Source of the DNA: an uncultured virus (IMG/VR IMGVR_UViG_3300017747_000864)
Taxonomy: Duplodnaviria; Heunggongvirae; Uroviricota; Caudoviricetes
IMG/VR virus record: IMGVR_UViG_3300017747_000864
Reading direction: 5' to 3' (one strand)
Length of the DNA: 64,000 bases
The notes under the pieces are model-generated. The model was not told the DNA's origin, searched no databases, and worked only from the letters and a program-made list of their open reading frames with translations. Positions 8,804 to 60,659 of this stretch are shown here, piece by piece. Made by a program: the position numbers and the translations under genes. Each line of letters begins with the position of its first letter. The stretch's first letter is position 1.

Positions 8804-11245
8804 TTAATAATACTCACGTTTTCGATGGTACATAGGCTCATCGTCCTCATCCGACCGTAGACGAATGAACCCACCACGCCTGTAACGCAGCAATGCCTGC
8901 GTCGTAGAGTCCACCAAGTCATCATGCTCACCAGCAGGGAATGCTGCGATCTCTTCGATCAATTCCTCCGCCCAGCGAGTATTAGGCACCCAAACGTGGC
9001 CGCTGGCAAATATGTCCGTAACAGCATTCAACCGAGCAATTTTGTCGTTGCCTTTACTAGGCGTGAACTCCTGCACGGGGATGCCCATGGCACGTAATTC
9101 AAAGATCAAAGGTGAGCCAGCAGCCTTGGCCTCAACGATCAGGCTATCGACCTCCCACTCCTTGAACTCCTGATACGCCCGTTGCTTGAGTTCCGGGAAC
9201 TCCATGCGCTTTTTGAACGCATTGAGCAGAATGATGTTCGACTGCGGCTTGCCCGTATCGTCGTCTTTATAGAACACCCCCCACGTAGTACACGCAGAGT
9301 AGTCAGCACGCTCGCTCTTCAGGAACGCCGTATCCCAAGACTGGATAATGAACTCGCAGTGGGGAGGGCTGTCTTCCTCCCAAATATGCCACCATTCCCG
9401 TTTGATGATGGCCGAGGCGTCTGAAGTTGGCTGCTGCTGATACTGGGCTTGCCACTTACTATTAGGTAGTTCTTCGCGCAGTGCCTCTAGTTCTTTCAAA
9501 CTCCAGAACTCAGGCCACAAGGGCTGGCCGCTGGGCATAATCGCGGGAAACTCAATCACCTCCCACTCTTCACCGCCCCGCTGAGCGCTGGATTTGAGCA
9601 CTTGCCCAGTCAGATCCTTTTGAGACCAGCGCGTGTTGTGGCTGATTACACCATTGGCGATAAAGTTCTCGGTACGCTCGATCTGAACATCGAAGACTTC
9701 TTCCTCGCCGTCCGGGATAATCTCAACTATCTGGTCGGTTGTTACGGCGTAGGTATTCAGCAGCTCGCCGCAGGATTTCTGGGGTCTTACCGTACCCAAC
9801 TGCGAGGTTGCAGTCGTTGCAGAGCAGCCCCCTGACGACGCCTGTGTCGTGGCAGTGGTCGATACAGAGCTTACCGTTCCAGTGGGCGCGGGTATTGGTG
9901 TCAGACGGCGGCTCACCGCAGACATCGCAGCGGTTACCACGCTCTTCAACCATACGGTTAAAGGTTTCCTCTGTGATCCCGTACTTACTTTTGATCCGTT
10001 TTGCCCGCCGAGACTCTGGAGTATAGTTTTTTCCCCGGTAGCCTTCGGACCAGCGCCACTTGTTGTAGTGCGACTGACAAAACCCGTTGATCTTTGCTGG
10101 CTCTGAACAGTTTTCTTCGGCGCAACTTCTGCCTTTCCACTTCCCGTGGTCGCCGAGAGGTTTGTAAGGCGCGTCCGGGTTCTTTCGGTGGTAAGCGGCT
10201 CGGGCTTGGCAGGGATGACAAAGTCCCGGTTTGTTTTGCGATCTTGCTGGGCGCTTGCATCCTTCGTTACTACAAGCGACATACCCGGCTTCAGGTCTTG
10301 CAATCTGGTCCATTTACGTTCTCCGTTGACATCGACGAGGAACGGATGCCTCGCGTTTGCCCGGACAAGTATGCCAGATTGTGTTCGTACTGTATATACT
10401 GAATCAACACCGTTTGACCGATGGTTAAGCACCTTTGCAGTCGTGATCTTGCCGTCCTCGTAGGTGGCTACATCATCACCCGGACGAATTTTCCTTAGCT
10501 CATTCGTAGACCCGTCAGCCATCAGTACGGGGGTATCCCCCGTCATGCACATAACCACAACAATTGCCCCACCCGGCTGCAAACGCTGCCGAGGACCAGA
10601 GGTGTACCACTCGTAGGTCTTGTCGTAGATCTCTGGGTTTACTTGAGCAAGAGCAGCCTCCTGCTCTGAGTGCGGGTCGTCAATAATTAGCAGGTCGGCA
10701 CCCTTACCGGTCACTGCACCCCCAACACCGATAGCAAAGTAGTCACCAGACTTGCTGGTATTCCACCTACCAGCCGCTTTTGAGTCAGCTTGGAGCGAAA
10801 GTTCGGGGAAAATGTCGTGATAAACCTCAGAATCGACCAGATTTCGCACTTTTCGACCAAAACCCACCGCCAATTCAGCAGTATGGGAGGTTTGGATCAC
10901 TTTTTTGTGCGGAAACTGCCCCAAAAACCACGCCGGGAGCAGATAAGAGGCAAATTCTGACTTGGTATGCCGTGGCGGCATGTTGATAATCAGCCGCTTG
11001 CACTCTCCACGGGCTACACGCTCGAAAGCAGTAGCCATAATCTTATGGTGCCTGCCAGAAATGAAGGTAGGCCAGACCTTTTCCACGAACTTAATGAACT
11101 TGGAGCGGGCCAACTCCTTCTGTTTGAGCTTTTCCAAGTGCAAAAGCTGGGCTTCCAGCACACGGAGGTCTGCCTCCGACAGCCTATCAAGCACTTTGGG
11201 GATGTCTTTAAGGGTAATCCCCGAGATTACCGGCTCTTCAAGCAC
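8804..11245 (-). CDS. terL: Terminase large subunit with an intein (about 508 aa after splicing)
   Basis: Walker A-like MPPRHTKS, Walker B LLIIDDP, RNase H nuclease SWDTA and HDDLVD; intein at residues 233-537. Confidence 0.95.
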   Translation of the reverse strand: MLEEPVISGITLKDIPKVLDRLSEADLRVLEAQLLHLEKLKQKELARSKFIKFVEKVWPTFISGRHHKIMATAFERVARGECKRLIINMPPRHTKSEFASYLLPAWFLGQFPHKKVIQTSHTAELAVGFGRKVRNLVDSEVYHDIFPELSLQADSKAAGRWNTSKSGDYFAIGVGGAVTGKGADLLIIDDPHSEQEAALAQVNPEIYDKTYEWYTSGPRQRLQPGGAIVVVMCMTGDTPVLMADGSTNELRKIRPGDDVATYEDGKITTAKVLNHRSNGVDSVYTVRTQSGILVRANARHPFLVDVNGERKWTRLQDLKPGMSLVVTKDASAQQDRKTNRDFVIPAKPEPLTTERTRTRLTNLSATTGSGKAEVAPKKTVQSQQRSTGFVSRTTTSGAGPKATGEKTILQSLGGQNGSKVSTGSQRKPLTVWLKSVVTAAMSAVSRRLTPIPAPTGTVSSVSTTATTQASSGGCSATTATSQLGTVRPQKSCGELLNTYAVTTDQIVEIIPDGEEEVFDVQIERTENFIANGVISHNTRWSQKDLTGQVLKSSAQRGGEEWEVIEFPAIMPSGQPLWPEFWSLKELEALREELPNSKWQAQYQQQPTSDASAIIKREWWHIWEEDSPPHCEFIIQSWDTAFLKSERADYSACTTWGVFYKDDDTGKPQSNIILLNAFKKRMEFPELKQRAYQEFKEWEVDSLIVEAKAAGSPLIFELRAMGIPVQEFTPSKGNDKIARLNAVTDIFASGHVWVPNTRWAEELIEEIAAFPAGEHDDLVDSTTQALLRYRRGGFIRLRSDEDDEPMYHRKREYY
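9635..10549 (-). mobile_element. Intein (305 aa) in TerL
   Basis: Starts CMTGDTPVLMADG (block A), ANARHPF (block B His), VFDVQIERTENFIANGVISHN (blocks F/G), +1 residue Thr; excision restores IVVVM|TRW. Confidence 0.93.
9723..10313 (-). CDS. Endonuclease VII-type homing endonuclease, nested out of frame in the intein
   Basis: YGIT...CDVC...LCIDHCHDTGVVRGLLCNDCNLAVG; GGAG RBS 7 nt before ATG; frame differs from TerL. Confidence 0.88.
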   Translation of the reverse strand: MDQIARPEAGYVACSNEGCKRPARSQNKPGLCHPCQARAAYHRKNPDAPYKPLGDHGKWKGRSCAEENCSEPAKINGFCQSHYNKWRWSEGYRGKNYTPESRRAKRIKSKYGITEETFNRMVEERGNRCDVCGEPPSDTNTRAHWNGKLCIDHCHDTGVVRGLLCNDCNLAVGYGKTPEILRRAAEYLRRNNRPDS

Positions 11246-11807
11246 CCGTTTCCTCCGCAGGGGGCTCCGCAGGGGCTTCTAGCTCACTAATAAGTGGCTC
11301 TACATCGACTACATCGGTATTGAGCAGGCGCTTGATGCGGTCTTTAATGCTGTTTTCCAGATCTTCGGACGACTTGTGAGTGACGGTCACTTCACTGCGC
11401 TCAGTAAACAGCCCGATATCACTGTGCTTACCAAGCAACTCAAGCGCTTTCAGTTCAAGTTTGGGGTCACCGCAGTCGCTCAGTTTCAGCAACTTATTAG
11501 TGACGTAGTTGCGTGCCTGCTGCACATCAACAAAAGCCTGAAAGTCAAACTGCTTAATCAGTATCGACACAGCTTTGGCTTCGCTAGGCACTGTGAGATG
11601 CCTAGGGTTATCCGTCTTGCCGACCCCGTTAATCAAAGCCGACGCTTTGTGCAGGTCTTCATTGCTGTAGTCGATTGACCCGCCGAGTTCTTCGATCAGA
11701 TCGACTGTGTTCGCCGCAATTGCCAGCCCGTCTTTATGAGTCTTAGGCAACTCATTAGAAAGATCAAACGGTAGGGGGCGGTCAGGCGTAGGAGTGACTT
11801 CAATCAT
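11238..11807 (-). CDS. Putative terminase small subunit
   Basis: 189 aa helical protein immediately upstream of and overlapping terL; LKALELLGK motif. Confidence 0.6.
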   Translation of the reverse strand: MIEVTPTPDRPLPFDLSNELPKTHKDGLAIAANTVDLIEELGGSIDYSNEDLHKASALINGVGKTDNPRHLTVPSEAKAVSILIKQFDFQAFVDVQQARNYVTNKLLKLSDCGDPKLELKALELLGKHSDIGLFTERSEVTVTHKSSEDLENSIKDRIKRLLNTDVVDVEPLISELEAPAEPPAEETGA

Positions 11808-14303: not shown

Positions 14304-14501
14304 ATGTTACCCACCTGCACAACGTGCGGCGACGATATAGAACCACCTGCCCGCGCACTCATAACAAACACCTGCAAGCACTGCGGTGAGCAAGCCGCAA
14401 GAAAAACTAGACGGACGGTCGTACCTATGTCAAAATCTAACTACATCCTAGTAACCGACCTGTCTCTCTTAAAAGGGCTAAACAAGTATGCGAACTCGTA
14501 A
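14304..14501 (+). CDS. C4 zinc-finger protein (possibly DksA/TraR-like)
   Basis: CTTC...R...TCKHC; ATG lies inside a palindrome copy. Confidence 0.6.
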   Translation: MLPTCTTCGDDIEPPARALITNTCKHCGEQAARKTRRTVVPMSKSNYILVTDLSLLKGLNKYANS

Positions 14502-14925
14502 CACTCCACACACTATGGAATCTCTGTTGGCGCTAACCGTACCGCACGGGGGCTGTCTAATTTGGCAGGGGGTATCTCGCGTGCTCAATGGGTACGGAGT
14601 GACTATGTACATGGGCAAGCAAACCACTACCCATCGGGTCATGTTCCAACTCTACACGGGGCAACCCATACCACCGGGCATGGAGATTGACCACACATGC
14701 AATAACCGACTGTGCATAAACCCCTTGCACCTACAGATGGTTACGCATTCCGAGAACATGCGCCTTGCGCTAGAGCGCCGCACCCACTGCCGTGCTGGTC
14801 ACGAATGGAACGACGCTAATACTTACTTAGCCGTAGTAAAGCGAAAGCAAGGAGGCACCCGAGAGCAGAGGTACTGCCGACCTTGCCGAGCCATCGCCCA
14901 AAGACGGTTGCGGACTTCCCCCTAA
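14488..14925 (+). CDS. HNH homing endonuclease (HNH_3 type with C-terminal Zn finger)
   Basis: CLIWQG...GYG...HRV...IDHTCNNRLCINPLHL...HSEN; THCRAGH...CRPC. Confidence 0.88.
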   Translation: MRTRNTPHTMESLLALTVPHGGCLIWQGVSRVLNGYGVTMYMGKQTTTHRVMFQLYTGQPIPPGMEIDHTCNNRLCINPLHLQMVTHSENMRLALERRTHCRAGHEWNDANTYLAVVKRKQGGTREQRYCRPCRAIAQRRLRTSP

Positions 14926-16980: not shown

Positions 16981-18051
16981 ATGAAAGCAAACGAGATTTC
17001 CTTCGGCAAAACCGTCAGCCTCGACGAGGCCGAGTCCCTCATCGTCAATGTCCCCGAGAATCGCTTTCACCTGATGGGCGAGCCGGGTATCGGCAAGAGC
17101 GCAATGCTGCGCCGCATCGCAAGCAAACTGGGCATCGACTATGCCTACATTGATGTACCTAACATGGACTTGGGTGACATCGCCATGCCTGTGGTGGATC
17201 ACGAGACGCGCACTACCCGGTACTACCCTAACTCCAGGTTCAAGTTTCATCTGGGCAAACCCGTTGCCGTCATGCTCGACGAGTTCACCAAGGGTGCTGA
17301 CCCCGTGAAGAACATGCTGCATCCCCTCTTTGAGGTCAATAACCCACGCCTCGGGGATGTGGCTGTGCCTGAGGGCTCGCCTATCTTCAGTACCGGCAAC
17401 ATGAGCAGCGACGGCGTGGGCGACAACATGAAGGCCCACACCAAAAGCCGCCTAACAAAGTTAGTCGTTCGCAAACCTTCGGCTAAGGAGTGGCTCAACT
17501 GGGCTGTGCCTACTGGCATCGCACCCGAGGTGTGTGCTTTCGTTGATCGGTACGAGCATGTCATGGCGTCCTACTTGGACGGTGGCAACGACGACAACCC
17601 GTACATCTACAACCCGCGCAAGGTACAGGACTCTTACATCACTCCCCGTACTCTGGAGTTGGCAAGCAATCTTGTGAACAAGCGGGGCAAGTACACGCCC
17701 GACGCGCTGATTGCGTCCTTGACTGGTGCTATCGGTGAGGCAGGTGCGCGTGATCTGCAAGCGTTCATTGCTTACTCTGACCAACTTCCTACCAAGGCGG
17801 CAATCATTGCCGACCCGAACAACGCTCCGATTCCTCACATGCCCGGAGCATGTGCTGTGCTGGTGTACTCCATGATCGCCGGAGCGGAGCGCGATACCTT
17901 CAGCAAGTTCATGACCTACATCAAGCGGCTCAGTGCCGAGTGGCAGGCCACGTTCGCTATCAACATCGCCAAAGACTCGCGCAAGCAAGCGGTGGCGTTC
18001 AGCAATGCTGACTTCGGCAAGTGGGTCGCCGACAACCAAGACCTTCTGTGA
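16981..18051 (+). CDS. MoxR/dynein-related AAA+ ATPase
   Basis: Walker A GEPGIGKS, Walker B VMLDE, sensor STGN, TPRT motif. Confidence 0.85.
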   Translation: MKANEISFGKTVSLDEAESLIVNVPENRFHLMGEPGIGKSAMLRRIASKLGIDYAYIDVPNMDLGDIAMPVVDHETRTTRYYPNSRFKFHLGKPVAVMLDEFTKGADPVKNMLHPLFEVNNPRLGDVAVPEGSPIFSTGNMSSDGVGDNMKAHTKSRLTKLVVRKPSAKEWLNWAVPTGIAPEVCAFVDRYEHVMASYLDGGNDDNPYIYNPRKVQDSYITPRTLELASNLVNKRGKYTPDALIASLTGAIGEAGARDLQAFIAYSDQLPTKAAIIADPNNAPIPHMPGACAVLVYSMIAGAERDTFSKFMTYIKRLSAEWQATFAINIAKDSRKQAVAFSNADFGKWVADNQDLL

Positions 18052-18060
18052 GGAGTAAGC

Positions 18061-18288
18061 ATGAAGCAACGCCACACCGCATGGGTTACCATCGGCACTA
18101 ACGACGGGCAAGTTCTGCCCACATGGTTCTATGCTTTCCGTAAGTGGGAGAGCGCCAAGGCATTCATGGACGCTGCCAACGACACCGTGTCTTGGGATCT
18201 CTTCCCGTGCGAGTTCATGTCCGTAGAAGAAACGCTGGAGAACTTCAAGCAGTGCATGCAAGAAGGCGACCGCAACATCCCCGTGTAA
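18061..18288 (+). CDS. Hypothetical protein
   Basis: 75 aa, AGGAG RBS. Confidence 0.7.
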   Translation: MKQRHTAWVTIGTNDGQVLPTWFYAFRKWESAKAFMDAANDTVSWDLFPCEFMSVEETLENFKQCMQEGDRNIPV

Positions 18289-18314
18289 CCCAACCAACCG
18301 AGAGAGGACTAACA

Positions 18315-19520
18315 ATGTTAGGCGAGAAACTTACACCCGAGCGCAAACTTCAGCGCGTCAAGATCAACCTGCTGCGTAACCCCAAGGTCGCCGTCATGTC
18401 TGGCATCTTGATGGTTGGCAGGACTTTCGTAGATGCAACGCTGCCGACTGCCCGAACCAACGGGCGGGACGAGTGGTACGGCGAGAAGTTCATCGCCACC
18501 CTCGACGAGCGGGAACTCGCGTTCGTCATCATGCACGAGGCATCACACAAGATGTACCGGCATCTGACCACGTGGAAGAAACTGCACGACGAGAACCACG
18601 AACTCGCCAATATGGCTTGCGACTACGTGATTAACCTCATGCTGCGTGATCTCGATCCGACCGAGACGTTCATGGCTATGCCCCGCAACAAAGACGGAAA
18701 GGTCATGGGCCTGATCGACGAGCGGTTCCGTGGCATGAACGCCAAGCAGGTGTTCGACATTCTCAAGCAGGAGCAAGAGAAGCGGGGCAGGGGCCAAGGG
18801 CAGGGTGAAGGTGAGGGCTTCGACGAGCATGACTGGGACGGGGCCAAGTTGTCCGAGGATGATGCCAAGGAGTTGGAGCGCGAGATCGACCAAGCCATTC
18901 GGCAAGGACTCATTGCCGAGCAGAAGGTGAAGGGTAACGGTCGCAGTGATCTCGCTCGTTCATTGGGTGAGTTGACTACGCCTAAGGTGGACTGGCGCGA
19001 GCAGATGCGTGAGTTCGTCAAGTCTGTGTGCGCTGGTAAGGATACGTCCTCATGGCGTAGGCCCAACCGTAGGTTCATCGGATCGGATATCTACCTGCCG
19101 ACGCTGGTGAGTGAGCGGGTCAACCGACTGGTCGTGGCTACCGATACTAGCGGCAGCATTGGCAACGCTGAACTGAACGCGGCAATGGCTGAGTTTGTGG
19201 GTATCTGCGATCAGGTTAAACCGGAGCACATTGATCTTCTGTACTGGGGTTCCCATGTCGCTGGTCACGAGACTTACGACGGCGCTGATGCCTCTAACAT
19301 TGTTAGTTCAACGCGCCCAATTGGAGGCGGTGGTACTTCGCCTTCGTGTATCACTGCGTACATCAAGGAGAAAAACTTGGATGCCGACTGTGTGGTTGTT
19401 TTCACAGACGGAGAGGTTGGGTCCGACTGGGGTGGAACTTGGCCTTGTCCCGTACTGTGGTGCGTCATTAACGGTAAGCAGGTTGCCACTACTGGCAAAA
19501 CTATTCACATCGCGGAGTAA
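18315..19520 (+). CDS. Metallopeptidase-VWA protein (DUF2201-like)
   Basis: HEASH zincin motif, NMACDYVIN, MIDAS DTSGS, GGGT, FTDG; start moved to ATG 18315. Confidence 0.85.
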   Translation: MLGEKLTPERKLQRVKINLLRNPKVAVMSGILMVGRTFVDATLPTARTNGRDEWYGEKFIATLDERELAFVIMHEASHKMYRHLTTWKKLHDENHELANMACDYVINLMLRDLDPTETFMAMPRNKDGKVMGLIDERFRGMNAKQVFDILKQEQEKRGRGQGQGEGEGFDEHDWDGAKLSEDDAKELEREIDQAIRQGLIAEQKVKGNGRSDLARSLGELTTPKVDWREQMREFVKSVCAGKDTSSWRRPNRRFIGSDIYLPTLVSERVNRLVVATDTSGSIGNAELNAAMAEFVGICDQVKPEHIDLLYWGSHVAGHETYDGADASNIVSSTRPIGGGGTSPSCITAYIKEKNLDADCVVVFTDGEVGSDWGGTWPCPVLWCVINGKQVATTGKTIHIAE

Positions 19521-22781: not shown

Positions 22782-23005
22782 TGCTGCGAGATGCGGTACG
22801 CATACTGGTCGAGCGCATGCGAAGCCATCCAGAGGAGTTCAATTCTGGCGGCAGATTCTTTTGGATTATCCAAGCACACACAGATGGGAGGCTGGATTTT
22901 TTGACTGAAGCCGAGCGACAGGCTTTTAAACAAGTACTCGACGCCATGCGATACGAAGCCTTCCACAACACTATTTTTTCTTCAGTGCTAGAAGCTAGAC
23001 GATGA
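22781..23005 (+). CDS. Hypothetical protein
   Basis: 74 aa, translationally coupled on both sides. Confidence 0.7.
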   Translation: MLRDAVRILVERMRSHPEEFNSGGRFFWIIQAHTDGRLDFLTEAERQAFKQVLDAMRYEAFHNTIFSSVLEARR

Positions 23006-24825
23006 ACGTATTGACGATTGATTTTGAGACGTTTTACAGCACTGAGTACAGCCTGACCAAGCTGACTACTGAGGAATACATAAGGGGTGATGAGTTTGAG
23101 GTAATCGGGGTATCGGTGCAGGTCAACGACGGCGAGCCTGAGTGGTTCTCGGGTACGCATAGTGAGACTAAGGCGTTCCTTCACAAGTTCAACTTTGCCG
23201 ACAACATCGCGTTAGCGCACAACGCCATGTTCGATGCGGCCATTCTCTCGTGGCAGTTTGATATCACGCCGAAGCGGTGGATGGACACGCTCAGCATGGC
23301 TCGGGCGCTGCACGGCACGGAAGTCGGTGGCAGTCTGAAAGCATTGGCCGAGCGGTACAAGTTGGGGGTCAAGGGTACGGAGGTAGTTAACGCGAAGGGG
23401 AAACGCCGACTGGATTTCTCCGCTACGGATCTGAGCCGCTATGCAGAGTATTGCTGCAACGACACGGCACTTACGTATGCGCTGATGCTCCGACTGATGC
23501 CTGAGTTTCCGCCCGTGGAACTGAAGCTGATCGACCTCACCATTCGGATGTTCTCCGAGCCTCAACTCCACCTGAGCACCAGCGTACTCAACTCGCATCT
23601 GAAGTCTGTGCAGCACAGGAAGCAGCAGTTGATGGACGGGATGCTGATGCAGGGGTACGCGAAAGAGGATTTGATGAGCAACCCCAAGTTGGCTCAGATC
23701 CTTACGAGCCTAGGGGTAAAGCCTCCCATGAAGGTGAGTCTTACTACTGGTAAAGAGACGTATGCGTTTGCCAAGAACGACGATGAGTTCAAAGCCCTGC
23801 TTGAGCATGAGTCCCCTTTAGTTCAAGCGATAGTCTCTGCACGTTTGGGGGTGAAGTCCACGCTTGAGGAAACTCGCACCGAGCGTTTCATTGGTATCGC
23901 TAACCGTGGCCCCATGCCCGTGCCTTTGCGTTACTACGCTGCCCACACTGGACGATGGGGTGGTGACGACAAACTCAATCTACAGAATCTACCTAGAGGG
24001 TCTGCGCTCAAGCATGCCATCGTCGCCCCGCTTGGCTATGTGATCTGCGACTCTGACTCATCTCAGATTGAAGCACGTACGCTGGCATGGCTAGCCGATC
24101 AGGATGATTTGGTCGAGGCGTTTGAAAACGGGCAGGACGTATACAAGATCATGGCGTCCGCTATTTACAACAAACCTGAGGCTGACATTACTAAGGATGA
24201 ACGGTTCGTTGGTAAGACCACGATTCTTGGTAGCGGCTACGGTATGGGGGCTATCAAGTTCAAGGCTCAGCTTAAGAACTTCGCCGTGGAGATTGACGAG
24301 ACGGAAGCGCAGCGCATCATTGACACGTACCGAACTACTTATCCTGCTATCCCCAAACTCTGGCGTAAATGCGGCGAAGTATTGGACTGGATCTCCTCGG
24401 ACAAGGTGGGCTATTTCGGGCGGGACAAGCTGCTCAAGGTAGAGGGTAAGAGCGGTATCCGCCTGCCGAACGGGCTGTACATGCGCTACCCAAACCTTAG
24501 GAAGGTTAAGAACGAGAGCACGGGTGAGTTTGAGTATGTGTACGACTCACGCAAAGGCGTAAACAAGATATACGGAGGGAAAGTTGTAGAGAACGTCTGT
24601 CAAGCGTTGGCTAGGATTGTGATCGGTGAGCAGATGCTCATGATCGCCAAGAAGTACAAGGTGGTGATGACCGTGCATGACGCTGTTGCCTGTCTTATCC
24701 CGCAACAGGAGGCAAGTAACGGTAAAGAGTACGTCGAGTTGTGCATGCGTCTGCGCCCCAAATGGGCAGCGGATCTTCCGCTTAACTGTGAAGCCGGAGT
24801 CGGCCATGACTACGGCGAATGCTAG
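23002..24825 (+). CDS. polA: DNA polymerase family A with 3'-5' exonuclease
   Basis: ExoI IDFET, ExoII HNAMFD, ExoIII YCCND; HTGRWGG, motif A DSSQIEAR, motif B R...KTTILGSGYG, motif C TVHD. Confidence 0.93.
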   Translation: MNVLTIDFETFYSTEYSLTKLTTEEYIRGDEFEVIGVSVQVNDGEPEWFSGTHSETKAFLHKFNFADNIALAHNAMFDAAILSWQFDITPKRWMDTLSMARALHGTEVGGSLKALAERYKLGVKGTEVVNAKGKRRLDFSATDLSRYAEYCCNDTALTYALMLRLMPEFPPVELKLIDLTIRMFSEPQLHLSTSVLNSHLKSVQHRKQQLMDGMLMQGYAKEDLMSNPKLAQILTSLGVKPPMKVSLTTGKETYAFAKNDDEFKALLEHESPLVQAIVSARLGVKSTLEETRTERFIGIANRGPMPVPLRYYAAHTGRWGGDDKLNLQNLPRGSALKHAIVAPLGYVICDSDSSQIEARTLAWLADQDDLVEAFENGQDVYKIMASAIYNKPEADITKDERFVGKTTILGSGYGMGAIKFKAQLKNFAVEIDETEAQRIIDTYRTTYPAIPKLWRKCGEVLDWISSDKVGYFGRDKLLKVEGKSGIRLPNGLYMRYPNLRKVKNESTGEFEYVYDSRKGVNKIYGGKVVENVCQALARIVIGEQMLMIAKKYKVVMTVHDAVACLIPQQEASNGKEYVELCMRLRPKWAADLPLNCEAGVGHDYGEC

Positions 24826-35011: not shown

Positions 35012-35040
35012 AGCCCCCGGCCTTCCGGGGGTTTTTTATT
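35012..35040 (+). terminator. Terminator at the convergence of the two arms
   Basis: GCCCCCGG-loop-CCGGGGGT followed by T run; abuts the stop of the 2365-aa gene. Confidence 0.8.
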
Positions 35041-38000
35041 TCCGCTCTTGCAGCCGCTCTTGCATGGTGGCCGCAGCCTCGCCCACAGTTCGGACATTTT
35101 TCTCACTGAAGGGCACTCCAGATACAGCCCTACCCTTTTGCTCCTGCATAGTCTGGGCCATACGAGCTAACTGATCGGGGGTAACTTTGTACTCTGGATG
35201 GCGGGCATTGAACTTGGGGATTTCTTCGCCGATCACTTTTTCAAGCAGATCAAATTTCTGCTTCTCGTAGGCGTGCTTAAACCGGCGAGCAATAAGGTCG
35301 CGTTTGTTAACGATCTGCTGTTCTGCACCTGTGAGTTTGAAGGATGCCTCCCGTGCAGCCGCAACGTCAGCGGGTACAGCGCCCAGAGCCTGCCGAAAGA
35401 TCTCGCCCTTTGTAACCTTATCCGGCGAAACCAACTCCCCTTTCGGCGTGGTATACCCTTCCTCTGCTACACGTTTCGCCACCGCCAAGTTACGGGCAGG
35501 GGCCAGCGGCACGGTTTGTTCAAACGCTTTTTGGTAGTCCCCGATCAAGGCAGATTGAATACCCTTAGCCGCAGACTGTCCGTAACTAAGCAATGGGCCA
35601 CCAAACGCGCTCATCATAAATGCGCCGACGGCTTCAGGAACCGTTGCACTCGGCTTGCCGTCACGGAACCACAGATCGTTAAGCCCGATCCTCCGGCCAA
35701 TGTCTACGTTGGTAAACGCACTCAATGCACCTTCACCAATAATCCGATCCAAAGGTACGTCGAGAATCTTTGTCTGCCCAAGAGTCTTGGGCATCCAGAC
35801 TGTCTTGAACCAAGTTACCGGGTCGATATCCTTGAGTTCCGCAGGCAAATCTTCATCGTCCAGATCATCAAGGAACTTGGTAAGCGCAGTGATAATCAGA
35901 TCGGCAAACGGCATGTTGTAAACACCAGCAACCACCGCAGCAGACATTGCAATACCCGCAAACTTTGTGATCGCTTGTGTTTTGCCTTCCTTGTTAAGAA
36001 GCGGAAGCGCCCGAGCAAGACTGCCGAACAACTGCTGCATAACCACGACTGGGTACATCTTCATGGAGAACGCAACCCTGCCGACAGGGTGCTGCATCCA
36101 CTTGGGCTTACTGCTCAGATCGTAGTCACCGAGTGACTCTTTTACGTCCGCAGCGGCCTGCATGACTGCTTGCTCGTGGGTGAGCCCTTTACTGCGCCCA
36201 ATACGGTAACTAGCAAGATACAGAGCCTCACGGGTAAGACGTTCTGTATTCCGAAGCAGCCCGTTGATTACTACGTCGGCAGTTTTCTTTCCAAGTTCTA
36301 CAGCCTTGCCGGTAGTCGTAGTAGGTGTAGCCGAGGGGATGTTGGCTTCACCTTGCGCTGCGTCCCACAAGAACCCGGAGTAAGTCTGCGTGGCTACATT
36401 CATAGCAGCCATTGCTTGGACGGCGGCTTTCTCATCTCCTGTCAGGTACTGACTGTTGACCAAAGAAGGCGCGACGTATTCAACTTCTCCGTTTGGCAGC
36501 TTACGGGTGATCCCGTACTGCCTCATATCTAGAACCACCCTAGCAACCTCCGCACCTACTTGCGCTGGATTAGCTTTGTGGTTAGCGGAGAGGATCGGAA
36601 TGCCAGAAATAACCAAACCGGAAGGCTGCACAAATGCAGTCATCGCACCCGTGAGGTACGTCAGATAAGTGAACTTGTTGGCAAGCCCTGCGAAAGCATC
36701 CAGAAACCCACGGAGGTTAGGGCGCATTACCGCATCTATTCTCGCTAAAACGGAGTCACGTACCGGGTGATACTTTTCCTCCGTAGCGGTAAAGCGCACC
36801 CTTTGTGCGCGAAGCTGCTGCCCATAGCGAAGCCGGGACAGCGCCGGAGCCATGCCTGTGATATGAGCAGCGATGTTCTGCCCAATATTTACTCGGTATC
36901 CGGCTCGCCCTTTACGCTCGTGAAAATGCTTACGGAAGCCCTGCTCTGGCATCATCGTCAGCCAGATATCAAACATGGCGCTCTTCAAGTCCTCGTTAAT
37001 AGTTACAGTCGATTCACCCGGAACAACCGAAGAATCAACAGCATTAAACAACTCGGACAGCAGCGTTCCTTGAAGGTCTATTCTGCTTCGCAGGTCTTTA
37101 GTATCGTTCCCCATATAGAAGGTGCGATCATCCTGAAGCATCTCTATATCATCAGTGTTGTACTGCTCACGCGCAATACGGCGAGCATCTGATGCACGAT
37201 CTTCTCGGCTCTCGTAGAAATAGACCTGAGGGTTTTCTTTGCCGACCAGCAGGAAAAACTTACCGGGGTCACGAGTCAGCGGTACATACGGCTCGATTCT
37301 GCGCTGCTCTGCAAACATGGCGTAGATCTTAGCCAGCATGTTTTCTTTGACGGCTGGATCAAGCCCCGGAAGATCTTCAATCTGCTTATTAAGCAAGAAC
37401 TCCATGTATCCACGAAGTGATTCGTGATAGTCGATGACCCGCTTATATATGGCCCGCCCTTTATCGCCAAGGGCTTGATACCGAGCATCAAGATCCGGAC
37501 TGCGCTCACGCGCAAAGCGTTTAGATGGGTCAATCCTCATCACAGTGGCTATCTGGATAAGGTCAGTTACATCCTGTTCAAGCTGCGGGTTTCCTTTTAC
37601 GTCACGCACGAGCATGCGTACTTGGTCGATAGCAGACTGATTAAGCTCGTTGATATGACCGAGCATTTGCTGAACGATGTTGTACGTATCCTGAACAGCC
37701 GGTACTTCTTTCTTAAACCAACGGCCAAGAAAATCAAACGACACGAGATCTGCAAGTAGTCTACGGCCCTGATAAGACGCATTGTCGTACTTGTCTTTCA
37801 GGATAGGCAGAACCTTACCTTCGTCCCGCATCCGCTGAAACATACTCATCGACTTATGCAAGTCGGAAGCGCGTGACTGCTGAAGCCCTGTAAGCGCCTT
37901 CTTATAGTCTGCGTTAATCTCTTTTTGCGAGCGCTGCGCTTGCTGTTTTTGCTGCGGAGAAGAAGCACCCAGTGCCTTTACGTCGCGCTCTTCTTGCGCA

Positions 38001-41000
38001 ATGGCAAGCATCTCAGGGGTCAAGCTGGAGCGGATGATCTTATCCGTGGCATATACGAGATCCTTGAAGGCATTGGTGTCGTTTGCACCGATGCCAAAGA
38101 TCCGCATTAGCCCTTGTACAAACTCGGTAAAGGGGGCTTTCTTTATGGCCCCCATCGCTGCCTGCATCAAAAAGACTTGGAAGTCCGGGTCAGTCAAACC
38201 ATAAGAAACAAACTCGGCGACATTGACGAATACCTCGCTGTCGCCATCCTCGTCGCGCAGTCGCTCGATCAGATCTACGACATTCGGGGAAACTTTGCCG
38301 ACGGACTTTAACATCCCGTAGCTGCGTTCTGCCCGCCCACTGGCCCGAACGATTATATCAACGGCCCTTCTAAGGTTGGAGTCCTTGACTGACGCCAACG
38401 CCAAGCGAATTTTTCTAGCAGTGGCCGCATGCAGAATCTCGTGCAGCGCAATGGTGTTGTTGATGCCTTGATGCACGCCAGCAGATGCACCGCGCACATA
38501 GATAACTCCGCTCGCTTCAGAGTACACACCGACGGCTCGGTCCCACAGGCTGCGGGCAACAAGTCGGGGGTTAGGCCGTTGGCCTTCTTCTACAACTACG
38601 AAGCGGATACCTGCAACTGCCCCCTTAAGCCTACGCGCAAGGAAGCGCTGAAATACCGTGCCCTTAGCAATAATCGCGTCAAGAGCGCCCTCGGCAGTAG
38701 TTGCAGCAGCGAGACCGGGGTTAACTACATCAACTCCACCGATCACATCTCCGATCTCATGCGAGAGTGCGCCGGTTGAATTTTCACCTTCACCCGCTGC
38801 ACGACGAAGTCTGTCCTCAGTATCGAGGTAGGTCTCAGCCTGCCTGCGCTCTGCTTCCGTAATTCTAGGATCTGCAAGTGCTTTTTTAACGCGCTTGTAT
38901 GCGGCGGTATTTTTAATACCCGGTATCCGCATCAACTGCATCAGGCCGACGGCGACGTTAGCCCGCATGTAAGACTGATAGTCCGCCAGTGTGGGGAAGG
39001 AATCCGAAGGGACAAATCCTTTAGCTGCGGTAGCCACGGAATCAAGCTGGGCCAGCAGTTTTCCTAGGTGGTAGGTCACCGTCTGGCCGATATTCTTTGC
39101 CTGCTTCTGCCCCTCGTTCTTTTCTTTGCGCTGCTCTTCAGTGAGTTCCATAGCAGGCCGACCACGCCCACGTTTCTCACCCTCACCTTCAGCAAGTTGC
39201 GCCGTTGCTTCCTTGCGAGGCCGACCACGCCCACGCTTAGTTACGGGGGGAGTAGTGTCCTCAACAACTAGCGCATCGGCATCGGCTGCTGCACCGGCAT
39301 CGGCGGCAGGTTCTTTTTGTCCTTGCGTTTCTGCTTGCTGGGCTTGAGGGGCTTGAGTGCCATCAGTCAATCCTGAGTATAAAGTCAAAAGTTCGGTAAA
39401 GGCGTTATCGTTCTTCAGCCCAAGCAGATCCGCGATGTACTGGGTAAACTTACCCCACGCACTAGTGTTCTCGTATTTAATGCGAGAAAGTTTGTACTGA
39501 AAGTCAGGATTACCGAGACCTTCTGCAACAAACTCATAGATATTAGCCGTCCCATAGGGCGGATATTTATCCGTTTCAAACTGTTTACGAACATGCTCGT
39601 ACAGCTTGTTAATTCGCTCAACAACAGGCCGTTGTTTAGCGGTGGGGTTTTTGATTGCTGCTACCGTTTGGGCGTGAACGATCTCATGGGCAAGCACTTC
39701 CTCATCTTGCGCACGATAATCCGGTACAAGAACAACATCGGCATCGGGGTCGTATTTACCCGCCGCAGAGAAGGTGCTGTATGGGGCAGATGCAGTCGTG
39801 CGAACCGCTTGTTCGTCCCCTATATCTTTTTCCAGATTGGCGAGTAACTCTTGCACATCCGCATTTGTACGGACTGGCCTATCCCCCTCGCGCTGGGAGG
39901 AGAACCAACTAATTTCTCCTTGGACTGAGAAGTTCGTTATCGGCCTATTATTAATTACCTCCCCGCGCTCGTAAATAGGAATCTCTATGGGGGCGGCTGA
40001 ATTATTGTCACTACCTTTGTAGGCTTGCGCGGTTTTAACGTAATCCCGCACTGCATCGAGCAGGGCTATCCTAAATTTGGCGTAGTCAATTACCGCAGTG
40101 CGGGAGGCGTTACCGCCCTCTTCAGGTTGCTCAAAGGCTTCATCGTCCACCTTTACGCCGGTCTTCAACCCACGCGCACGGCGGGCAATTTCAGCAACCA
40201 CCTTATTTTTGCTTCTCTCAAGCGCATCAAGAAGTTTGGGGAAGTTACCTTCTCTTACTGCGGTACCCGCAGCGCGGTTATCTCTACGCCCGCGCAGTGA
40301 GCCGGGGTAGGCTTGCGAAGCCCCCAGCGCAGTACCAAATGCCACACGCTGCTGAAGATCTGTGGGTTGCTTCTCTTTGGTAGCCTTGGTTACTGCAACG
40401 GGTTCTGCTGCTGTTCCGCCAGTAGGTTGTTCAACATCTGTTGAAGGAGGTACCACTCCAGTTGGTTCAGTTCCTGCAACTCCTCCGGTGGGGGCGACAG
40501 TTCCGGGGACGCCAGCCACTCCAGCGCCAACTCCACCTGTGGCATCGACAGCTTCTCCAGCACGCTTCTCTCCTACTGGTTCTTCAACAATCTCAGCCTG
40601 CTCATTAGCAAACTGCTCCCGAGCAAAGGTCTCGGCCTGAGCAGGGGGGAAACCGCCGTCGATAAACTCGTTGTATATGGAAAGGAGGCGCTCTTCTTCA
40701 GGCGACCCTACGGGTGGCTGCTGGAATACAGGGAGAGCCTTAGTAATTACTTCGTCAACTTCCGCGAGTTTTCTTTTTACTTCGGCTTCCGCAATGGCAC
40801 GCGCCTCTACCTCAGATACAGGCAAAGTCGCCATAATCTCCTGCACCCTGCGCTCAACATCAGGCAACGGAGCCGAGACGGGAGGCTCAGGAGTAATGGG
40901 AGTCTGTGGCCCGAACGTAGGCTCAACCCTAGTTTCCGCAGGAGAAGCGGGCTGCTGCGTAGCGCCAAACGTGGGTTCGATACGCTCGTATACGGAGGGT

Positions 41001-60004: not shown

Positions 60005-60237
60005 TATCTAAACCTTGCAGTCTTTTTGGCGATGGTCTTGGGCTGAGATACGAACTGCTTGCCTTTGGCCTTGCCAGCGCGTTTAGCGCGGGTGGTCGCA
60101 GCGTACTCGGCGGAGGACAGGGACTTGATCGCGTTTGCGGGAAGGTATCGCTCGCCAGTCTCGCTTGAGGGCTTGCCTGACTTCGTGCGCCATTTCTGAG
60201 CAGTCCAGTCTTTTAGTGACTGCTGGGGGGCTTTCAT
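60004..60237 (-). CDS. Small basic protein (DUF5872-like C-terminal part)
   Basis: QQSLKDWTAQKWRTKSG...ERYLP...KGKQFV. Confidence 0.65.
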   Translation of the reverse strand: MKAPQQSLKDWTAQKWRTKSGKPSSETGERYLPANAIKSLSSAEYAATTRAKRAGKAKGKQFVSQPKTIAKKTARFR

Positions 60238-60659
60238 TTGTACCCCCCGCTATTCTCTTTCAAATACGCAACAGCGGCTTCAAGAATTTCAACTTTATCC
60301 CGCGCATGCCCGAGCATGGTGTTGCACGGATTGCATAAAAGCCCTCTGACTTTCCCGGAATAGTGGCAGTGGTCCACGTCCAGTTTTTTACCAAGCTCAT
60401 CCTCACTGATGCCGCAAATCATACACCGACAATCTTCCGCTTGGCGCATGGCTTCCCACTGTTCATAGGTCAAGCCGTACCGCAGTTGTAGCTTCTCAGC
60501 CTTGCGGTTGCGGGGCGTTGTTGGACTCGTCCGTTTGTATTCCTGATGGCACGGCTTGCATCGTGCGCTCAAATAGCGCTTCTGTGTCCAGCGGTCAAAG
60601 AACCGATAAAAATCGGATTCGTCCTTGTCCTGCTCGCAGAGAAGGCACGCTTTTGTCAT
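60234..60659 (-). CDS. Free-standing endonuclease VII-type homing endonuclease
   Basis: YGLT...CMIC...LDVDHCHYSGKVRGLLCNPCNTMLG...AVAYL. Confidence 0.88.
   Translation of the reverse strand: MTKACLLCEQDKDESDFYRFFDRWTQKRYLSARCKPCHQEYKRTSPTTPRNRKAEKLQLRYGLTYEQWEAMRQAEDCRCMICGISEDELGKKLDVDHCHYSGKVRGLLCNPCNTMLGHARDKVEILEAAVAYLKENSGGYK

What the first reader, a model, noticed from the sequence alone, without database searches (positions are those of the whole stretch)
9635..10549. Terminase intein whose homing endonuclease is a separate gene overprinted in another frame
Seen: a canonical intein (C1...HN, +1 Thr) whose central ~190 residues are S/T/G-rich with no LAGLIDADG or HNH motif. The same DNA read in the -1 frame (9723-10313) encodes an intact endonuclease VII-type protein with extra N-terminal Cys/His clusters and its own RBS (GGAG-AACGTAA-ATG). 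Both frames are stop-free for ~197 codons. Established: intein endonucleases are normally in-frame LAGLIDADG domains. I recall out-of-frame intein endonucleases being reported in some actinobacteriophages, so this is rare rather than certainly unprecedented. Inference: a free-standing EndoVII gene colonised a mini-intein, and splicing discards the junk translation while the nuclease is expressed independently and drives homing.
Basis: partly seen in the sequence, partly recalled or inferred. Interest (0 to 1): 0.85.

Follow-up and report, generated by a model that had tools for sequence, protein, structure and literature searches.

The report
Terminase intein with overprinted homing nuclease
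A phage packaging gene carries a self-splicing protein insert whose middle encodes, in a shifted reading frame, a separate DNA-cutting enzyme that probably spreads the insert; this layout was first described in 2025, and here it turns up in a different, very large group of phages.

Summary
terL (8804-11245, minus strand, 813 aa) carries a 305-aa class-1 intein (9635-10549). A 196-aa Endonuclease_7 ORF (9723-10313) lies inside it at frame offset +2 (Pfam E 3.4e-20).

In 59 distinct metagenomic copies both frames stay open. In the overlap, selection acts on the nested frame: pN/pS is 0.33, against 1.15 in the terL frame. The in-frame middle (aa 102-262) is predicted unstructured, and the two ends fold as a mini-intein. 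A GGAG box and the ATG are favoured at sites that are synonymous in terL.

The element looks mobile:
- 79 of the 80 closest N-extein relatives lack it.
- The nuclease tree conflicts with the extein tree (AU p 1e-4).
- Contigs from three studies carry about 99%-identical terL with exactly these 915 nt missing.

It is not unprecedented. A 2025 bioRxiv preprint describes homologous out-of-frame endonuclease VII inteins in actinophage TerL, at the same site and offset, with 49-62% identity. What is new is the range. I found hundreds of uncultured phage contigs (39-67% GC) relatives of Pelagibacter, cyanobacterial and Caulobacter phages, and a locus on a 948-kb Bradyrhizobium contig, probably a prophage.

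Splicing, translation and cleavage remain untested. Verdict: a new member of a known kind, of moderate interest.

The parts
8804..11245 (-). terL, the terminase large subunit precursor: 813 aa including the intein, 508 aa once spliced
   Evidence: ORF. PHROG terminase large subunit at E 8e-101. Terminase_6C at E 5.6e-11.
10550..11245 (-). N-extein, the ATPase part of TerL (aa 1-232). It ends ...GAIVVVM.
   Evidence: The closest IMG/VR relatives are 77-87% identical, and 79 of those 80 run straight into the C-extein.
9635..10549 (-). Class-1 intein, 305 aa, from Cys1 to His-Asn, followed by Thr at +1
   Evidence: Intein_splicing at E 2.7e-15. C1, H68, H304 and N305 are invariant in 36 of 36 sequences. 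Exactly these 915 nt are skipped in contigs of runs X6, X7 and X11.
10250..10549 (-). N-terminal splicing lobe of the intein, aa 1-100 (blocks A and B)
   Evidence: pLDDT is 80-96 and the region is beta-rich. It matches mini-intein structures. The third position of terL codons is the most variable: 0.262/0.222/0.498.
9764..10246 (-). In-frame middle of the intein, aa 102-262. It is rich in T, S, G and A and acts as an unstructured linker, a by-product of the other frame.
   Evidence: pLDDT is below 50 and there is no secondary structure. Composition is T29, S21, G15 and A14 of 161 residues. pN/pS in this frame is 1.15.
9635..9763 (-). C-terminal splicing lobe of the intein, aa 263-305 (blocks F and G, ...NFIANGVISHN)
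   Evidence: pLDDT is about 90 or higher from aa 270. Invariant columns are listed. Diversity by terL codon position is 0.111/0.023/0.571.
9723..10313 (-). Nested gene for a 196-aa endonuclease VII-family protein at frame offset +2 relative to terL. It is the presumed homing endonuclease.
   Evidence: PF02945 at E 3.4e-20. PHROG endonuclease VII at E 5.5e-31. pN/pS is 0.33, and diversity by nested codon position is 0.281/0.219/0.527. The model has mean pLDDT 78.
10321..10324 (-). GGAG Shine-Dalgarno-like box, 7 nt upstream of the nested ATG (10311-10313)
   Evidence: Sequence. GGAG is present in 48 of 59 distinct copies. The Gly codon there is GGA in 49 of 59, against 14% GGA among 1966 background Gly codons. 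The codon that supplies the first base of the start ends in A in 54 of 59, against 39% for background K/E/Q codons.
10209..10274 (-). First Cys4 cluster of the nested protein (C14, C19, C32, C35). It is present only in the long form.
   Evidence: Invariant in 36 of 36 sequences. It is missing from the 151-152-aa nested proteins of Affeca and Phlyer and from the short metagenomic forms.
10068..10124 (-). Second zinc-finger-like cluster of the nested protein (C64, C69, C79, H82)
   Evidence: The three Cys are invariant. There are weak Pfam zinc-finger hits. The model of aa 60-90 resembles an A20-type zinc finger at Z 4.1, rmsd 1.3 over 31 residues, which is weak.
9747..10001 (-). Endonuclease VII catalytic core of the nested protein, aa 105-189
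   Evidence: Pfam stretch 105-189. C129, C132, D152, H153, H155, C165, C168 and N169 are invariant. They align with the CxxC, DHxH and CxxCN motifs of T4 endonuclease VII.
8804..9634 (-). C-extein, the nuclease part of TerL. It begins TRW.
   Evidence: Terminase_6C. The closest C-extein is L057 at 81%.

Best explanation
terL of this roughly 60-kb phage is interrupted, at the conserved ATPase strand GAIV(I/V)VM|TRW, by a mobile class-1 intein.

The first 100 or so and last 40 or so residues of the intein form a complete HINT splicing domain. After translation this domain excises the 305-aa insert and ligates a 508-aa TerL (inferred, not shown here).

The DNA between the two splicing lobes is really a separate gene, read at offset +2 on the same strand. 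It encodes a 196-aa protein with two Cys-rich, probably zinc-binding DNA-binding modules and an endonuclease VII (His-Me finger) catalytic core. In the terL frame the same DNA gives only a stop-free, disordered linker rich in T, S, G and A, which is discarded with the intein.

The nuclease is most likely translated from the terL mRNA by internal initiation at its own GGAG-N7-ATG (inferred). It then most likely acts as the element's homing endonuclease: it cuts intein-free terL alleles of co-infecting relatives at or near the empty site, and recombinational repair copies the intein together with its nuclease gene into them (inferred).

Shown here: the dual coding, the switch of selection between frames, the sporadic and incongruent distribution, and the existence of precise intein-free alleles in near-identical phages.

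For: Anatomy.

Fold:
- The intein model has pLDDT above 90 for aa 1-100 and about 270-305, and below 50 with no secondary structure for aa 102-262.
- The folded part matches mini-inteins: NpuDnaB 4o1r at E 1.4e-8, TM 0.87 on the target, rmsd 2.3; also the Mtu RecA and gp41-1 inteins.

Selection, on 59 distinct metagenomic copies:
- There are no stops in either frame, and the start sits at the same position (54 ATG, 5 GTG).
- In the overlap, nucleotide diversity by nested codon position is 0.281/0.219/0.527. pN/pS is 0.33 in the nested frame and 1.15 in the terL frame.
- In the splicing-only parts and the exteins, the third position of terL codons is the most variable, at 0.50-0.60.

A sample drawn independently of the nuclease, seeded with the first 78 intein residues:
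- All 68 distinct inteins carry the nuclease at offset +2.
- In 66 of them the frame is open for at least 153 codons.

Translation signals: GGAG in 48 of 59 copies, GGA in 49 of 59 against a 14% background, and an A-ending preceding codon in 54 of 59 against 39%.

Adaptation to overprinting:
- A free-standing paralogue in the same window has 5 stops in the equivalent frame over 140 codons.
- Permuting synonymous codons of the terL frame leaves the nested frame open in only 0.08% of trials.

Mobility:
- 79 of the 80 closest N-extein relatives are intein-free, with no gap at the site.
- The C-extein tree needs at least 9 changes of intein state, 5 of them forced by well-supported branches.
- The nuclease tree puts the window in a clade with 99% support whose exteins are only 50-60% identical to the window's. 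The AU test rejects the extein grouping at p 0.000116.
- Contigs of X6, X7 and X11, from three studies, join 9634 directly to 10550. Flanks differ at 15 of 1464 and 15 of 1414 letters. A contig of X4 covers the intein with 0 differences.

Homology to the published class:
- Gordonia phage Affeca and Mycobacterium phage Phlyer carry the nested ORF at the same site and offset.
- Nuclease identity is 49-62%, while N-extein identity is 27% (Phlyer) or undetectable (Affeca).
Against: - Nothing here shows protein splicing, translation of the nested ORF or DNA cleavage. No RNA run was available.
- The Shine-Dalgarno box lies inside a translated ORF, which may make initiation inefficient.
- The structural match of the nuclease model to T4 endonuclease VII is weak: Foldseek E 0.075 and VIA Z 2.7.
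- By the HMMER alignment, the residue aligned with T4 Glu65 is Val172. My recollection, not a tool result, is that Glu65 is catalytically important.
- Block B of the intein has Asn65 where the canonical TxxH motif has Thr.
- pS in the nested frame (0.725) is near saturation, and the copies are phylogenetically related. The counts of GGAG, ATG and open frames are therefore not independent events.
- The extein tree mixes two samples chosen by different criteria, so the number of state changes depends on the sampling.
- The intein-free alleles could reflect loss by recombination with an empty allele rather than recent gain. Contigs show presence, not absence.
Confidence: 0.85

Rival explanations
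1. The nested endonuclease VII is not a homing enzyme. It is a structure-specific resolvase or debranching enzyme serving the phage, like T4 gp49 which clears branched DNA for packaging, and it happens to be lodged inside terL.
For: The family is that of T4 recombination endonuclease VII. A position inside the packaging gene would give sensible co-expression. The nested frame is under purifying selection, which any useful function would explain.
Against: - The phage already has a separate free-standing endonuclease VII gene at 60237-60659.
- 79 of the 80 closest N-extein relatives, and the roughly 99%-identical strains in three runs, do without both the intein and the nested gene. It is therefore dispensable.
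- Its tree conflicts with the extein tree.
- It carries extra Cys-rich modules, as sequence-targeting nucleases often do.
Confidence: 0.07
2. The nuclease is not made from its own start. It arises by a programmed +2/-1 frameshift of ribosomes translating terL, which gives a fusion of the N-extein, the N-lobe of the intein and endonuclease VII.
For: The gene lies on the same strand, inside a translated ORF. The scan found no promoter-like site on the minus strand upstream. The nested frame is open for a few codons upstream of the ATG in some copies.
Against: - A start codon stands at the same position in 59 of 59 copies, with a strong synonymous bias towards ATG, and GGAG lies at -11 to -8 in 48 of 59.
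- In the window a stop immediately precedes the ATG, because the open frame begins at the start codon itself.
- The first 13 or so nested residues are variable, as expected of a free N-terminus.
- No unusual RNA structure was found at the site, z = 0.00.
Confidence: 0.05
3. The nested ORF is a decaying relic with no present function. The insert behaves as a vertically inherited mini-intein with a long junk loop.
For: Degenerate copies exist. L170 is frameshifted and L175 has an internal deletion. L258 and L260 on bacterial genome contigs are broken.
Against: - 66 of 68 independently sampled inteins keep the frame open, although identity falls to about 41-75%.
- pN/pS is 0.33, with variation concentrated at the third position of nested codons.
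- The catalytic and zinc-binding residues are invariant.
- The distribution is sporadic and incongruent with the exteins.
Confidence: 0.02

Closest known systems
[quoted passage not shown] I read the abstract, selected passages and section 15. The supplements are closed.
   Same: - The host protein is TerL and the insertion site is the same (...M/Q|C...HN|TRW).
- The nuclease is read at the same offset, their 'reading frame 3'.
- The in-frame middle is unstructured.
- The sequences are homologous. The nuclease is 59-62% identical to those of Gordonia phages Affeca, Sedona, Keitabear and Angelicage, and 48-49% to the Pipefish group.
   Different: - The carrier is not an actinophage of PhagesDB. 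Its portal and TerL exteins are closest to phages of Pelagibacter, Synechococcus, Planktothrix, Roseobacter and Caulobacter.
- The nuclease is a long form with an extra N-terminal Cys4 cluster, 196 aa against 151-152 aa.
- Added here: hundreds of uncultured carriers, frame-specific selection measurements, bias at translation signals, and presence/absence polymorphism in about 99%-identical genomes.
Cyanobacterial DnaX intein with an out-of-frame LAGLIDADG homing endonuclease (Phillips, DeSimone and Gogarten, bioRxiv 10.64898/2026.09.14.751524). I read the abstract and section 17.
   Same: The homing endonuclease lies in a +2 frame inside an intein. dN/dS is low in the nuclease frame and raised in the intein frame. 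The distribution is sporadic, and intein-free and intein-bearing alleles coexist.
   Different: The nuclease family (LAGLIDADG), the host gene (cellular dnaX) and the carriers (bacteria) all differ. The two elements are not homologous.
ShiLan insertion element in a phage DNA methylase with a hidden out-of-frame HNH endonuclease (PMC11855218). I saw only the search listing and the start of the abstract.
   Same: An in-frame, stop-free insert in a phage gene carries an out-of-frame His-Me/HNH-type nuclease and shows homing-like evolution.
   Different: According to its abstract, that insert could not be identified as an intein. The host gene differs.
Fractured genes: split inteins with a free-standing endonuclease gene between the two halves (Dassa et al. 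2009, PMC2677866). I saw only the search listing and the start of the abstract.
   Same: A separately translated nuclease gene sits where an intein's endonuclease domain would be. The cases were found in environmental, phage-like DNA.
   Different: There the host gene and the intein are physically split and spliced in trans, and the nuclease family differs. Here the intein stays contiguous because the nuclease gene contains no stop in the terL frame.
Canonical inteins with an in-frame LAGLIDADG domain. One sits in the N-extein of the related TerL in L027.
   Same: A HINT splicing domain is interrupted at the same topological point by the mobility function. They are selfish homing elements in conserved sites of essential genes.
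   Different: The nuclease is a domain of the same polypeptide, with no overprinting and no internal start.
T4 recombination endonuclease VII (gp49; PDB 1e7d, 1en7)
   Same: Both belong to Pfam family PF02945. The CxxC...DHxH...CxxCN pattern is conserved.
   Different: T4 gp49 is a structure-specific resolvase with no extra zinc-finger modules and is not part of a mobile element. The structural superposition is weak. The residue aligned with T4 Glu65 is Val here.

Membership tests
Class-1 intein (HINT domain) | A nucleophilic Cys or Ser as the first residue | tested here: met
   Cys1 is invariant in 36 of 36 aligned inteins and in all 61 distinct copies listed.
Class-1 intein (HINT domain) | Block B TxxH motif | tested here: inconclusive
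   His68 is invariant, but the position of the canonical Thr is an invariant Asn65. The motif definition is recalled, not taken from a call.
Class-1 intein (HINT domain) | C-terminal His-Asn followed by Cys, Ser or Thr at +1 | tested here: met
   H304 and N305 are invariant. The +1 triplet is TRW in all 61 copies.
Class-1 intein (HINT domain) | HINT fold | tested here: met
   PF14890 scores 56.9 bits against a cut-off of 35.8. The model matches 51 PDB chains at E <= 0.001; the listed ones are almost all intein, Hedgehog or intein-like (BIL) splicing domains, for example 4o1r at E 1.4e-8 with TM 0.87 on the target.
Class-1 intein (HINT domain) | An in-frame insert at a conserved host-protein site, with contiguous insert-free alleles | tested here: met
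   79 of 80 relatives have no gap at the site. A precise 915-nt skip is seen in three runs.
Class-1 intein (HINT domain) | Protein splicing activity | not testable with these tools
   This needs expression and a gel or mass spectrometry.
Endonuclease VII / His-Me finger nuclease (PF02945) | Profile match above the curated threshold | tested here: met
   72.2 bits against a cut-off of 23.6, E 3.4e-20, aa 105-189.
Endonuclease VII / His-Me finger nuclease (PF02945) | Four zinc-binding Cys plus the catalytic Asp, His, His and Asn | tested here: met
   C129, C132, C165, C168, D152, H153, H155 and N169 are invariant. They align with the corresponding T4 endonuclease VII motifs. The roles of these residues are recalled. 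The residue aligned with T4 Glu65 is Val172.
Endonuclease VII / His-Me finger nuclease (PF02945) | Similarity of fold to solved endonuclease VII structures | tested here: inconclusive
   T4 endonuclease VII and Hpy99I are the top Foldseek hits, but only at E 0.075-0.15. VIA gives Z 2.7, rmsd 5.7 over 67 residues.
Homing endonuclease (functional class) | Encoded inside the intervening element that it mobilises | tested here: met
   The nested ORF lies wholly within the intein.
Homing endonuclease (functional class) | Sporadic distribution, a history incongruent with the host gene, and coexisting empty alleles | tested here: met
Homing endonuclease (functional class) | Cleaves the element-free allele at or near the insertion site | not testable with these tools
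   This needs an in-vitro cleavage assay.
[quoted passage not shown] 2025 preprint) | Located in TerL, with the nuclease on the same strand in the third frame relative to the intein and an unstructured in-frame middle | tested here: met
   The offset is +2 in the window, in Affeca and in Phlyer. The middle has pLDDT below 50.
[quoted passage not shown] 2025 preprint) | Sequence homology to the published examples | tested here: met
   The nuclease is 59-62% identical to those of the Gordonia phages named in the preprint, and every one of those matches lies under an annotated terminase gene.

The most novel reading that the evidence does not exclude
The mini-intein plus overprinted endonuclease VII gene is a single, old, pan-phage mobile element. 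It targets the TerL ATPase strand ...VM|TRW in phages whose relatives infect at least Actinobacteria, Proteobacteria and cyanobacteria, and possibly Firmicutes. It has stayed dual-coded throughout, and it is homing right now in a freshwater phage population. That would make it the most widespread non-canonical intein and a natural model for how a gene survives being overprinted on an essential ORF. A bolder extension is that placing the nuclease start inside the translated terL ORF lets terL ribosome traffic throttle nuclease synthesis.
Probability: 0.55. Interest if true: 0.55.

Novelty: new member of a known kind. Interest (0 to 1): 0.42.

Why it matters
It shows that the out-of-frame endonuclease VII intein, reported so far only from actinobacteriophages, is a large and still mobile family. 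It occurs in uncultured aquatic phages and on bacterial genome contigs, among them a 948-kb Bradyrhizobium contig.

The many carriers span 39-67% GC, and their nuclease identities to the window's run from about 41% to 76%. That gives an unusually clean natural dataset for studying overprinting. Selection switches frame exactly at the borders of the nested gene. The essential frame is kept free of stops. Translation signals are written into sites that are synonymous in the host gene.

There is also a practical point. Gene callers annotate only terL, so the nuclease goes unannotated. Such inteins would be misfiled as decaying or mini-inteins.

The nuclease, with its Cys-rich modules and a target in a conserved terL motif, is a candidate for a new specificity class of His-Me homing enzymes.

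Tried and rejected
- **The window's own genome:** none is held. I therefore searched the window itself for paralogues.
- **Internal promoter for the nested gene:** the consensus scan of 9500-11400 found no promoter-like site on the minus strand.
- **RNA structure around the nested start:** minimum free energy -27.6 kcal/mol, z = 0.00 against shuffles. Nothing notable.
- **Structural confirmation of the nuclease fold:** only weak matches. Foldseek gave nothing at E <= 0.001 and VIA nothing at Z >= 5. The family assignment rests on sequence profiles.
- **Expression:** no RNA holder was listed among the 22 runs.
- **Ancestors or derivatives of this lineage:** I looked among the 160 IMG/VR loci for a mini-intein without the nuclease and for an in-frame endonuclease VII intein. 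I found neither. The only departures were one frameshifted copy and one internally deleted copy.
- **Homodimer prediction for the nuclease:** not run. The report does not depend on it.
- **Large protein-database searches** (search for homologous proteins, the search of protein representatives, atlas): not used, because the contig scans answered the question.
- **Depth:** not used to estimate allele ratios, because contig depth cannot support that.
- **Host labels of metagenome-assembled genomes:** not used as host evidence, because phage contigs can be mis-binned.


Full report
**1.

- Window 8804-11245 (minus strand) is one 813-aa ORF. It is a terminase large subunit: PHROG at E 8e-101 and Terminase_6C at E 5.6e-11.
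- Residues 233-537, window 9635-10549, are an intein. They begin with Cys and end His-Asn, and Thr follows. Pfam Intein_splicing scores E 2.7e-15, above its cut-off. No LAGLIDADG or HNH domain is found in that frame.
- On the same strand, 9723-10313 is a 196-aa ORF that starts 932 nt after the terL start, so its offset is +2. It matches Endonuclease_7 at E 3.4e-20 and the PHROG endonuclease VII families.
- GGAG lies 7 nt before its ATG.
- This is not chance. When I permuted synonymous codons of the terL frame across the overlap, the nested frame stayed open in 0.08% of 5000 trials, with a mean of 5.95 stops.

**2. Structure**

I aligned the window's intein with 35 relatives and modelled it. 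The model is confident and beta-rich for aa 1-100 and about 270-305. For aa 102-262 it has pLDDT below 50 and no secondary structure. The folded part superposes on solved mini-inteins: NpuDnaB 4o1r at E 1.4e-8, TM 0.87 on the target and rmsd 2.3, and also the Mtu RecA and gp41-1 inteins. In the terL frame, then, the insert is a complete mini-intein with a 161-residue linker rich in T, S, G and A.

The nested protein models at mean pLDDT 78. A profile built from it finds Hpy99I (E 5.9e-5) and T4 endonuclease VII (E 5.6e-4) among solved structures. The CxxC, DHxH and CxxCN motifs align and are invariant in 36 of 36 relatives. Structural superposition is weak: Foldseek E 0.075 and VIA Z 2.7. The family call therefore rests on sequence.

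Two further invariant Cys clusters precede the catalytic core: C14, C19, C32 and C35, then C64, C69 and C79 followed by H82. The second loosely resembles an A20-type zinc finger at Z 4.1, which is weak.

**3. Relatives, and which frame is selected**

A scan of IMG/VR with the nested protein found 307 stretches. The best 80 were kept. All 80 place the protein inside an intein at the same terL site. In every locus where the intein's first residue is present, the nested ORF starts 236 nt after it.

Among the 59 distinct copies:
- Neither frame has a stop, and the nested start is ATG in 54 and GTG in 5.
- In the overlap, nucleotide diversity by nested codon position is 0.281/0.219/0.527. Variation therefore falls on nested third positions, which are terL second positions.
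- pN/pS is 0.33 in the nested frame and 1.15 in the terL frame.
- In the splicing-only parts and in the exteins the pattern reverses. There the third position of terL codons is the most variable, at 0.50, 0.57, 0.60 and 0.59.

Selection thus switches frame at the borders of the nested gene. The alignments show the same thing. The first 13 or so and the last few nested residues vary where the intein frame is conserved (W80, L83, L86, V93, and the block F/G region). The reverse holds in the middle.

That sample was seeded with the nuclease, so I drew a second sample with the first 78 intein residues only. All 68 distinct inteins carry the nuclease at offset +2. In 66 of them the frame is open for at least 153 codons. 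One copy (L170) is frameshifted and one (L175) has an internal deletion.

There are two size classes. The long form is 184-200 aa, like the window's. The short form is about 153-164 aa and lacks the first Cys4 cluster, as in the actinophages.

**4. Signals for independent translation**

- GGAG occupies positions -11 to -8 in 48 of 59 copies.
- The terL Gly codon that supplies it is GGA in 49 of 59, although GGA is the rarest Gly codon in the surrounding terL frames (14% of 1966).
- The terL codon that supplies the first base of the start ends in A in 54 of 59, against 39% for K/E/Q codons nearby.

These are biases at sites that are synonymous for terL, which fits a Shine-Dalgarno-led internal start. 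The copies are related, so the counts are not independent events. I found no minus-strand promoter-like site upstream and no unusual RNA structure. The simplest reading is therefore translation from the terL mRNA.

The nested gene also looks adapted to its position. A free-standing endonuclease VII paralogue in the same window (60237-60659) has 5 stops in the equivalent frame over 140 codons.

**5. Mobility**

- Of the 80 IMG/VR loci closest to the window's N-extein (77-87% identity), 79 run straight from ...VM into TRW..., and only one carries the intein.
- On a C-extein tree of 131 rows (55 with the intein, 76 without), the intein state changes at least 9 times, 5 of them forced by well-supported branches. 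Because the two sets were sampled by different criteria, this shows scatter and is not a rate.
- The window's C-extein groups with L057 and L023 (98% support), while its nuclease sits in a 99%-supported clade with L005, L009-L013, L016 and L058, whose exteins are only 50-60% identical to the window's. The AU test on the nuclease alignment rejects the extein grouping at p 0.000116.
- The most direct evidence comes from public runs. Contigs from runs X6, X7 and X11, which belong to three studies, join window 9634 directly to 10550. They skip exactly the 915 nt of the intein. Their flanks differ from the window at 15 of 1464 letters (X6) and 15 of 1414 (X11). A contig of run X4, from a fourth study, covers 9437-10601 with no difference.

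Near-identical phages therefore exist with and without the element. Whether that reflects gain or loss cannot be told from contigs.

**6. What is already known**

A bioRxiv preprint (10.1101/2025.01.02.630785; I read the abstract, passages and section 15) surveys PhagesDB. [quoted passage not shown] These include terminase inteins of Gordonia phages Affeca, Keitabear and Sedona and one printed there as 'Angelicase'. The authors call the type previously unreported and propose that a free-standing endonuclease invaded an intein.

I checked Affeca and Mycobacterium phage Phlyer directly. Both have a 151-152-aa nested ORF at the same site and at offset +2. In GenBank phages, all 39 best matches to the window's nuclease (H31-H69) lie under annotated terminase genes of Gordonia, Mycobacterium or Mycolicibacterium phages, mostly at 45-62% identity and three at 37%. 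Matches to free-standing endonuclease VII genes, in Klebsiella phages for example, are at 44% or less. The exteins are far more distant: 27% for the Phlyer N-extein, and no hit for Affeca.

The window's element is therefore a homologue of the published type that has crossed between very different terminases. Related precedents for out-of-frame nucleases are the cyanobacterial DnaX intein (10.64898/2026.09.14.751524; abstract and section 17) and the ShiLan element (PMC11855218; listing only).

My three literature searches found no paper placing the TerL endonuclease VII type outside actinophages. That statement is limited to this library.

**7. What is new here**

The carrier is a roughly 60-kb phage. 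The whole window is phage DNA. The closest cultured relatives of its portal and TerL exteins infect Pelagibacter, Synechococcus, Planktothrix, Roseobacter and Caulobacter. Carrier contigs span 39-67% GC.

In bacterial genome records, 18 of 21 matched loci show the composite. In 15 of them both frames are intact. One of these lies on a 948-kb contig of a Bradyrhizobium tropiciagri isolate, probably a prophage. Others lie on contigs of Mycolicibacterium, Oribacterium and Dysosmobacter isolates. Two copies are degenerate (L258, L260). I do not rely on the host labels of metagenome-assembled genomes.

**8. Verdict**

Splicing, translation of the nested gene and cleavage of the empty site remain inferred. 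The arrangement is a new member of a recently described kind. Its value is that it is far more widespread than reported, it looks currently mobile, and it shows unusually clearly how selection is shared between two overprinted frames.

Noticed in passing
window 60237-60659 (-): A free-standing 140-aa endonuclease VII gene. It scores PF02945 at E 1.2e-23 and is 38.5% identical to aa 98-192 of the nested nuclease. It has 5 stops in the frame that would correspond to terL. It may be the phage's own resolvase, or a relative of the gene that colonised the intein.
   Followed up: partly
L027 1037-4495 (also L062 and L079): In some relatives TerL carries two inteins. In L027 the 1152-aa ORF has a canonical in-frame LAGLIDADG intein in the N-extein (LAGLIDADG_3 at E 7e-9, Hom_end at E 2e-5) as well as the endonuclease VII-nested intein. 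The N-exteins of L062 and L079 are split by a similar insertion of about 1 kb. That insertion was not analysed in those two.
   Followed up: partly
window 8804-11245, compared with L084 and L057: The window's TerL is mosaic. The relatives closest in the N-extein (87%) have C-exteins only about 68% identical. The closest C-extein (L057, 81%) comes with an N-extein 75% identical. The closest nuclease (L005, 76%) sits in exteins 56-60% identical. There are three histories, and they meet at the intein.
   Followed up: partly
L170, L175, L258, L260: Degenerate copies of the element exist. L170 has a frameshift that puts part of the nuclease in the intein frame. L175 has an internal deletion, giving a 225-aa intein with a 112-codon nested ORF. 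In L258 (911-kb genome contig) the intein frame is broken; in L260 (8.5-kb contig) the nested frame.
   Followed up: partly
window 14488-14922 (+): Another putative free-standing homing-type nuclease gene: HNH_3 at E 7.6e-15 and a PHROG HNH endonuclease family at E 2e-37.
   Followed up: no
window 18144-19517 (+): The two libraries disagree on this gene. The PHROG family is labelled 'HNH endonuclease' (E 6e-85), but Pfam finds DUF2201_N (putative metallopeptidase) and the DUF2201 VWA-like domain. The PHROG label is probably misleading.
   Followed up: no
window 17799-17878 (-): ARAGORN calls a tRNA-Arg(CCG) on the strand opposite to, and inside, the ATPase ORF 16981-18048. It may be a false call or a real overlap.
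   Followed up: no
window 35039-42133 (-): A 2365-aa ORF whose C-terminal third matches DarB-like antirestriction and large virion protein families (PHROG at E 2.4e-40). It is probably an ejected internal virion protein.
   Followed up: no
window 23002-24822 (+): The DNA polymerase ORF (607 aa) matches only positions 670-1233 of a 1445-position PHROG profile. The polymerase may be split, or a shorter form.
   Followed up: no
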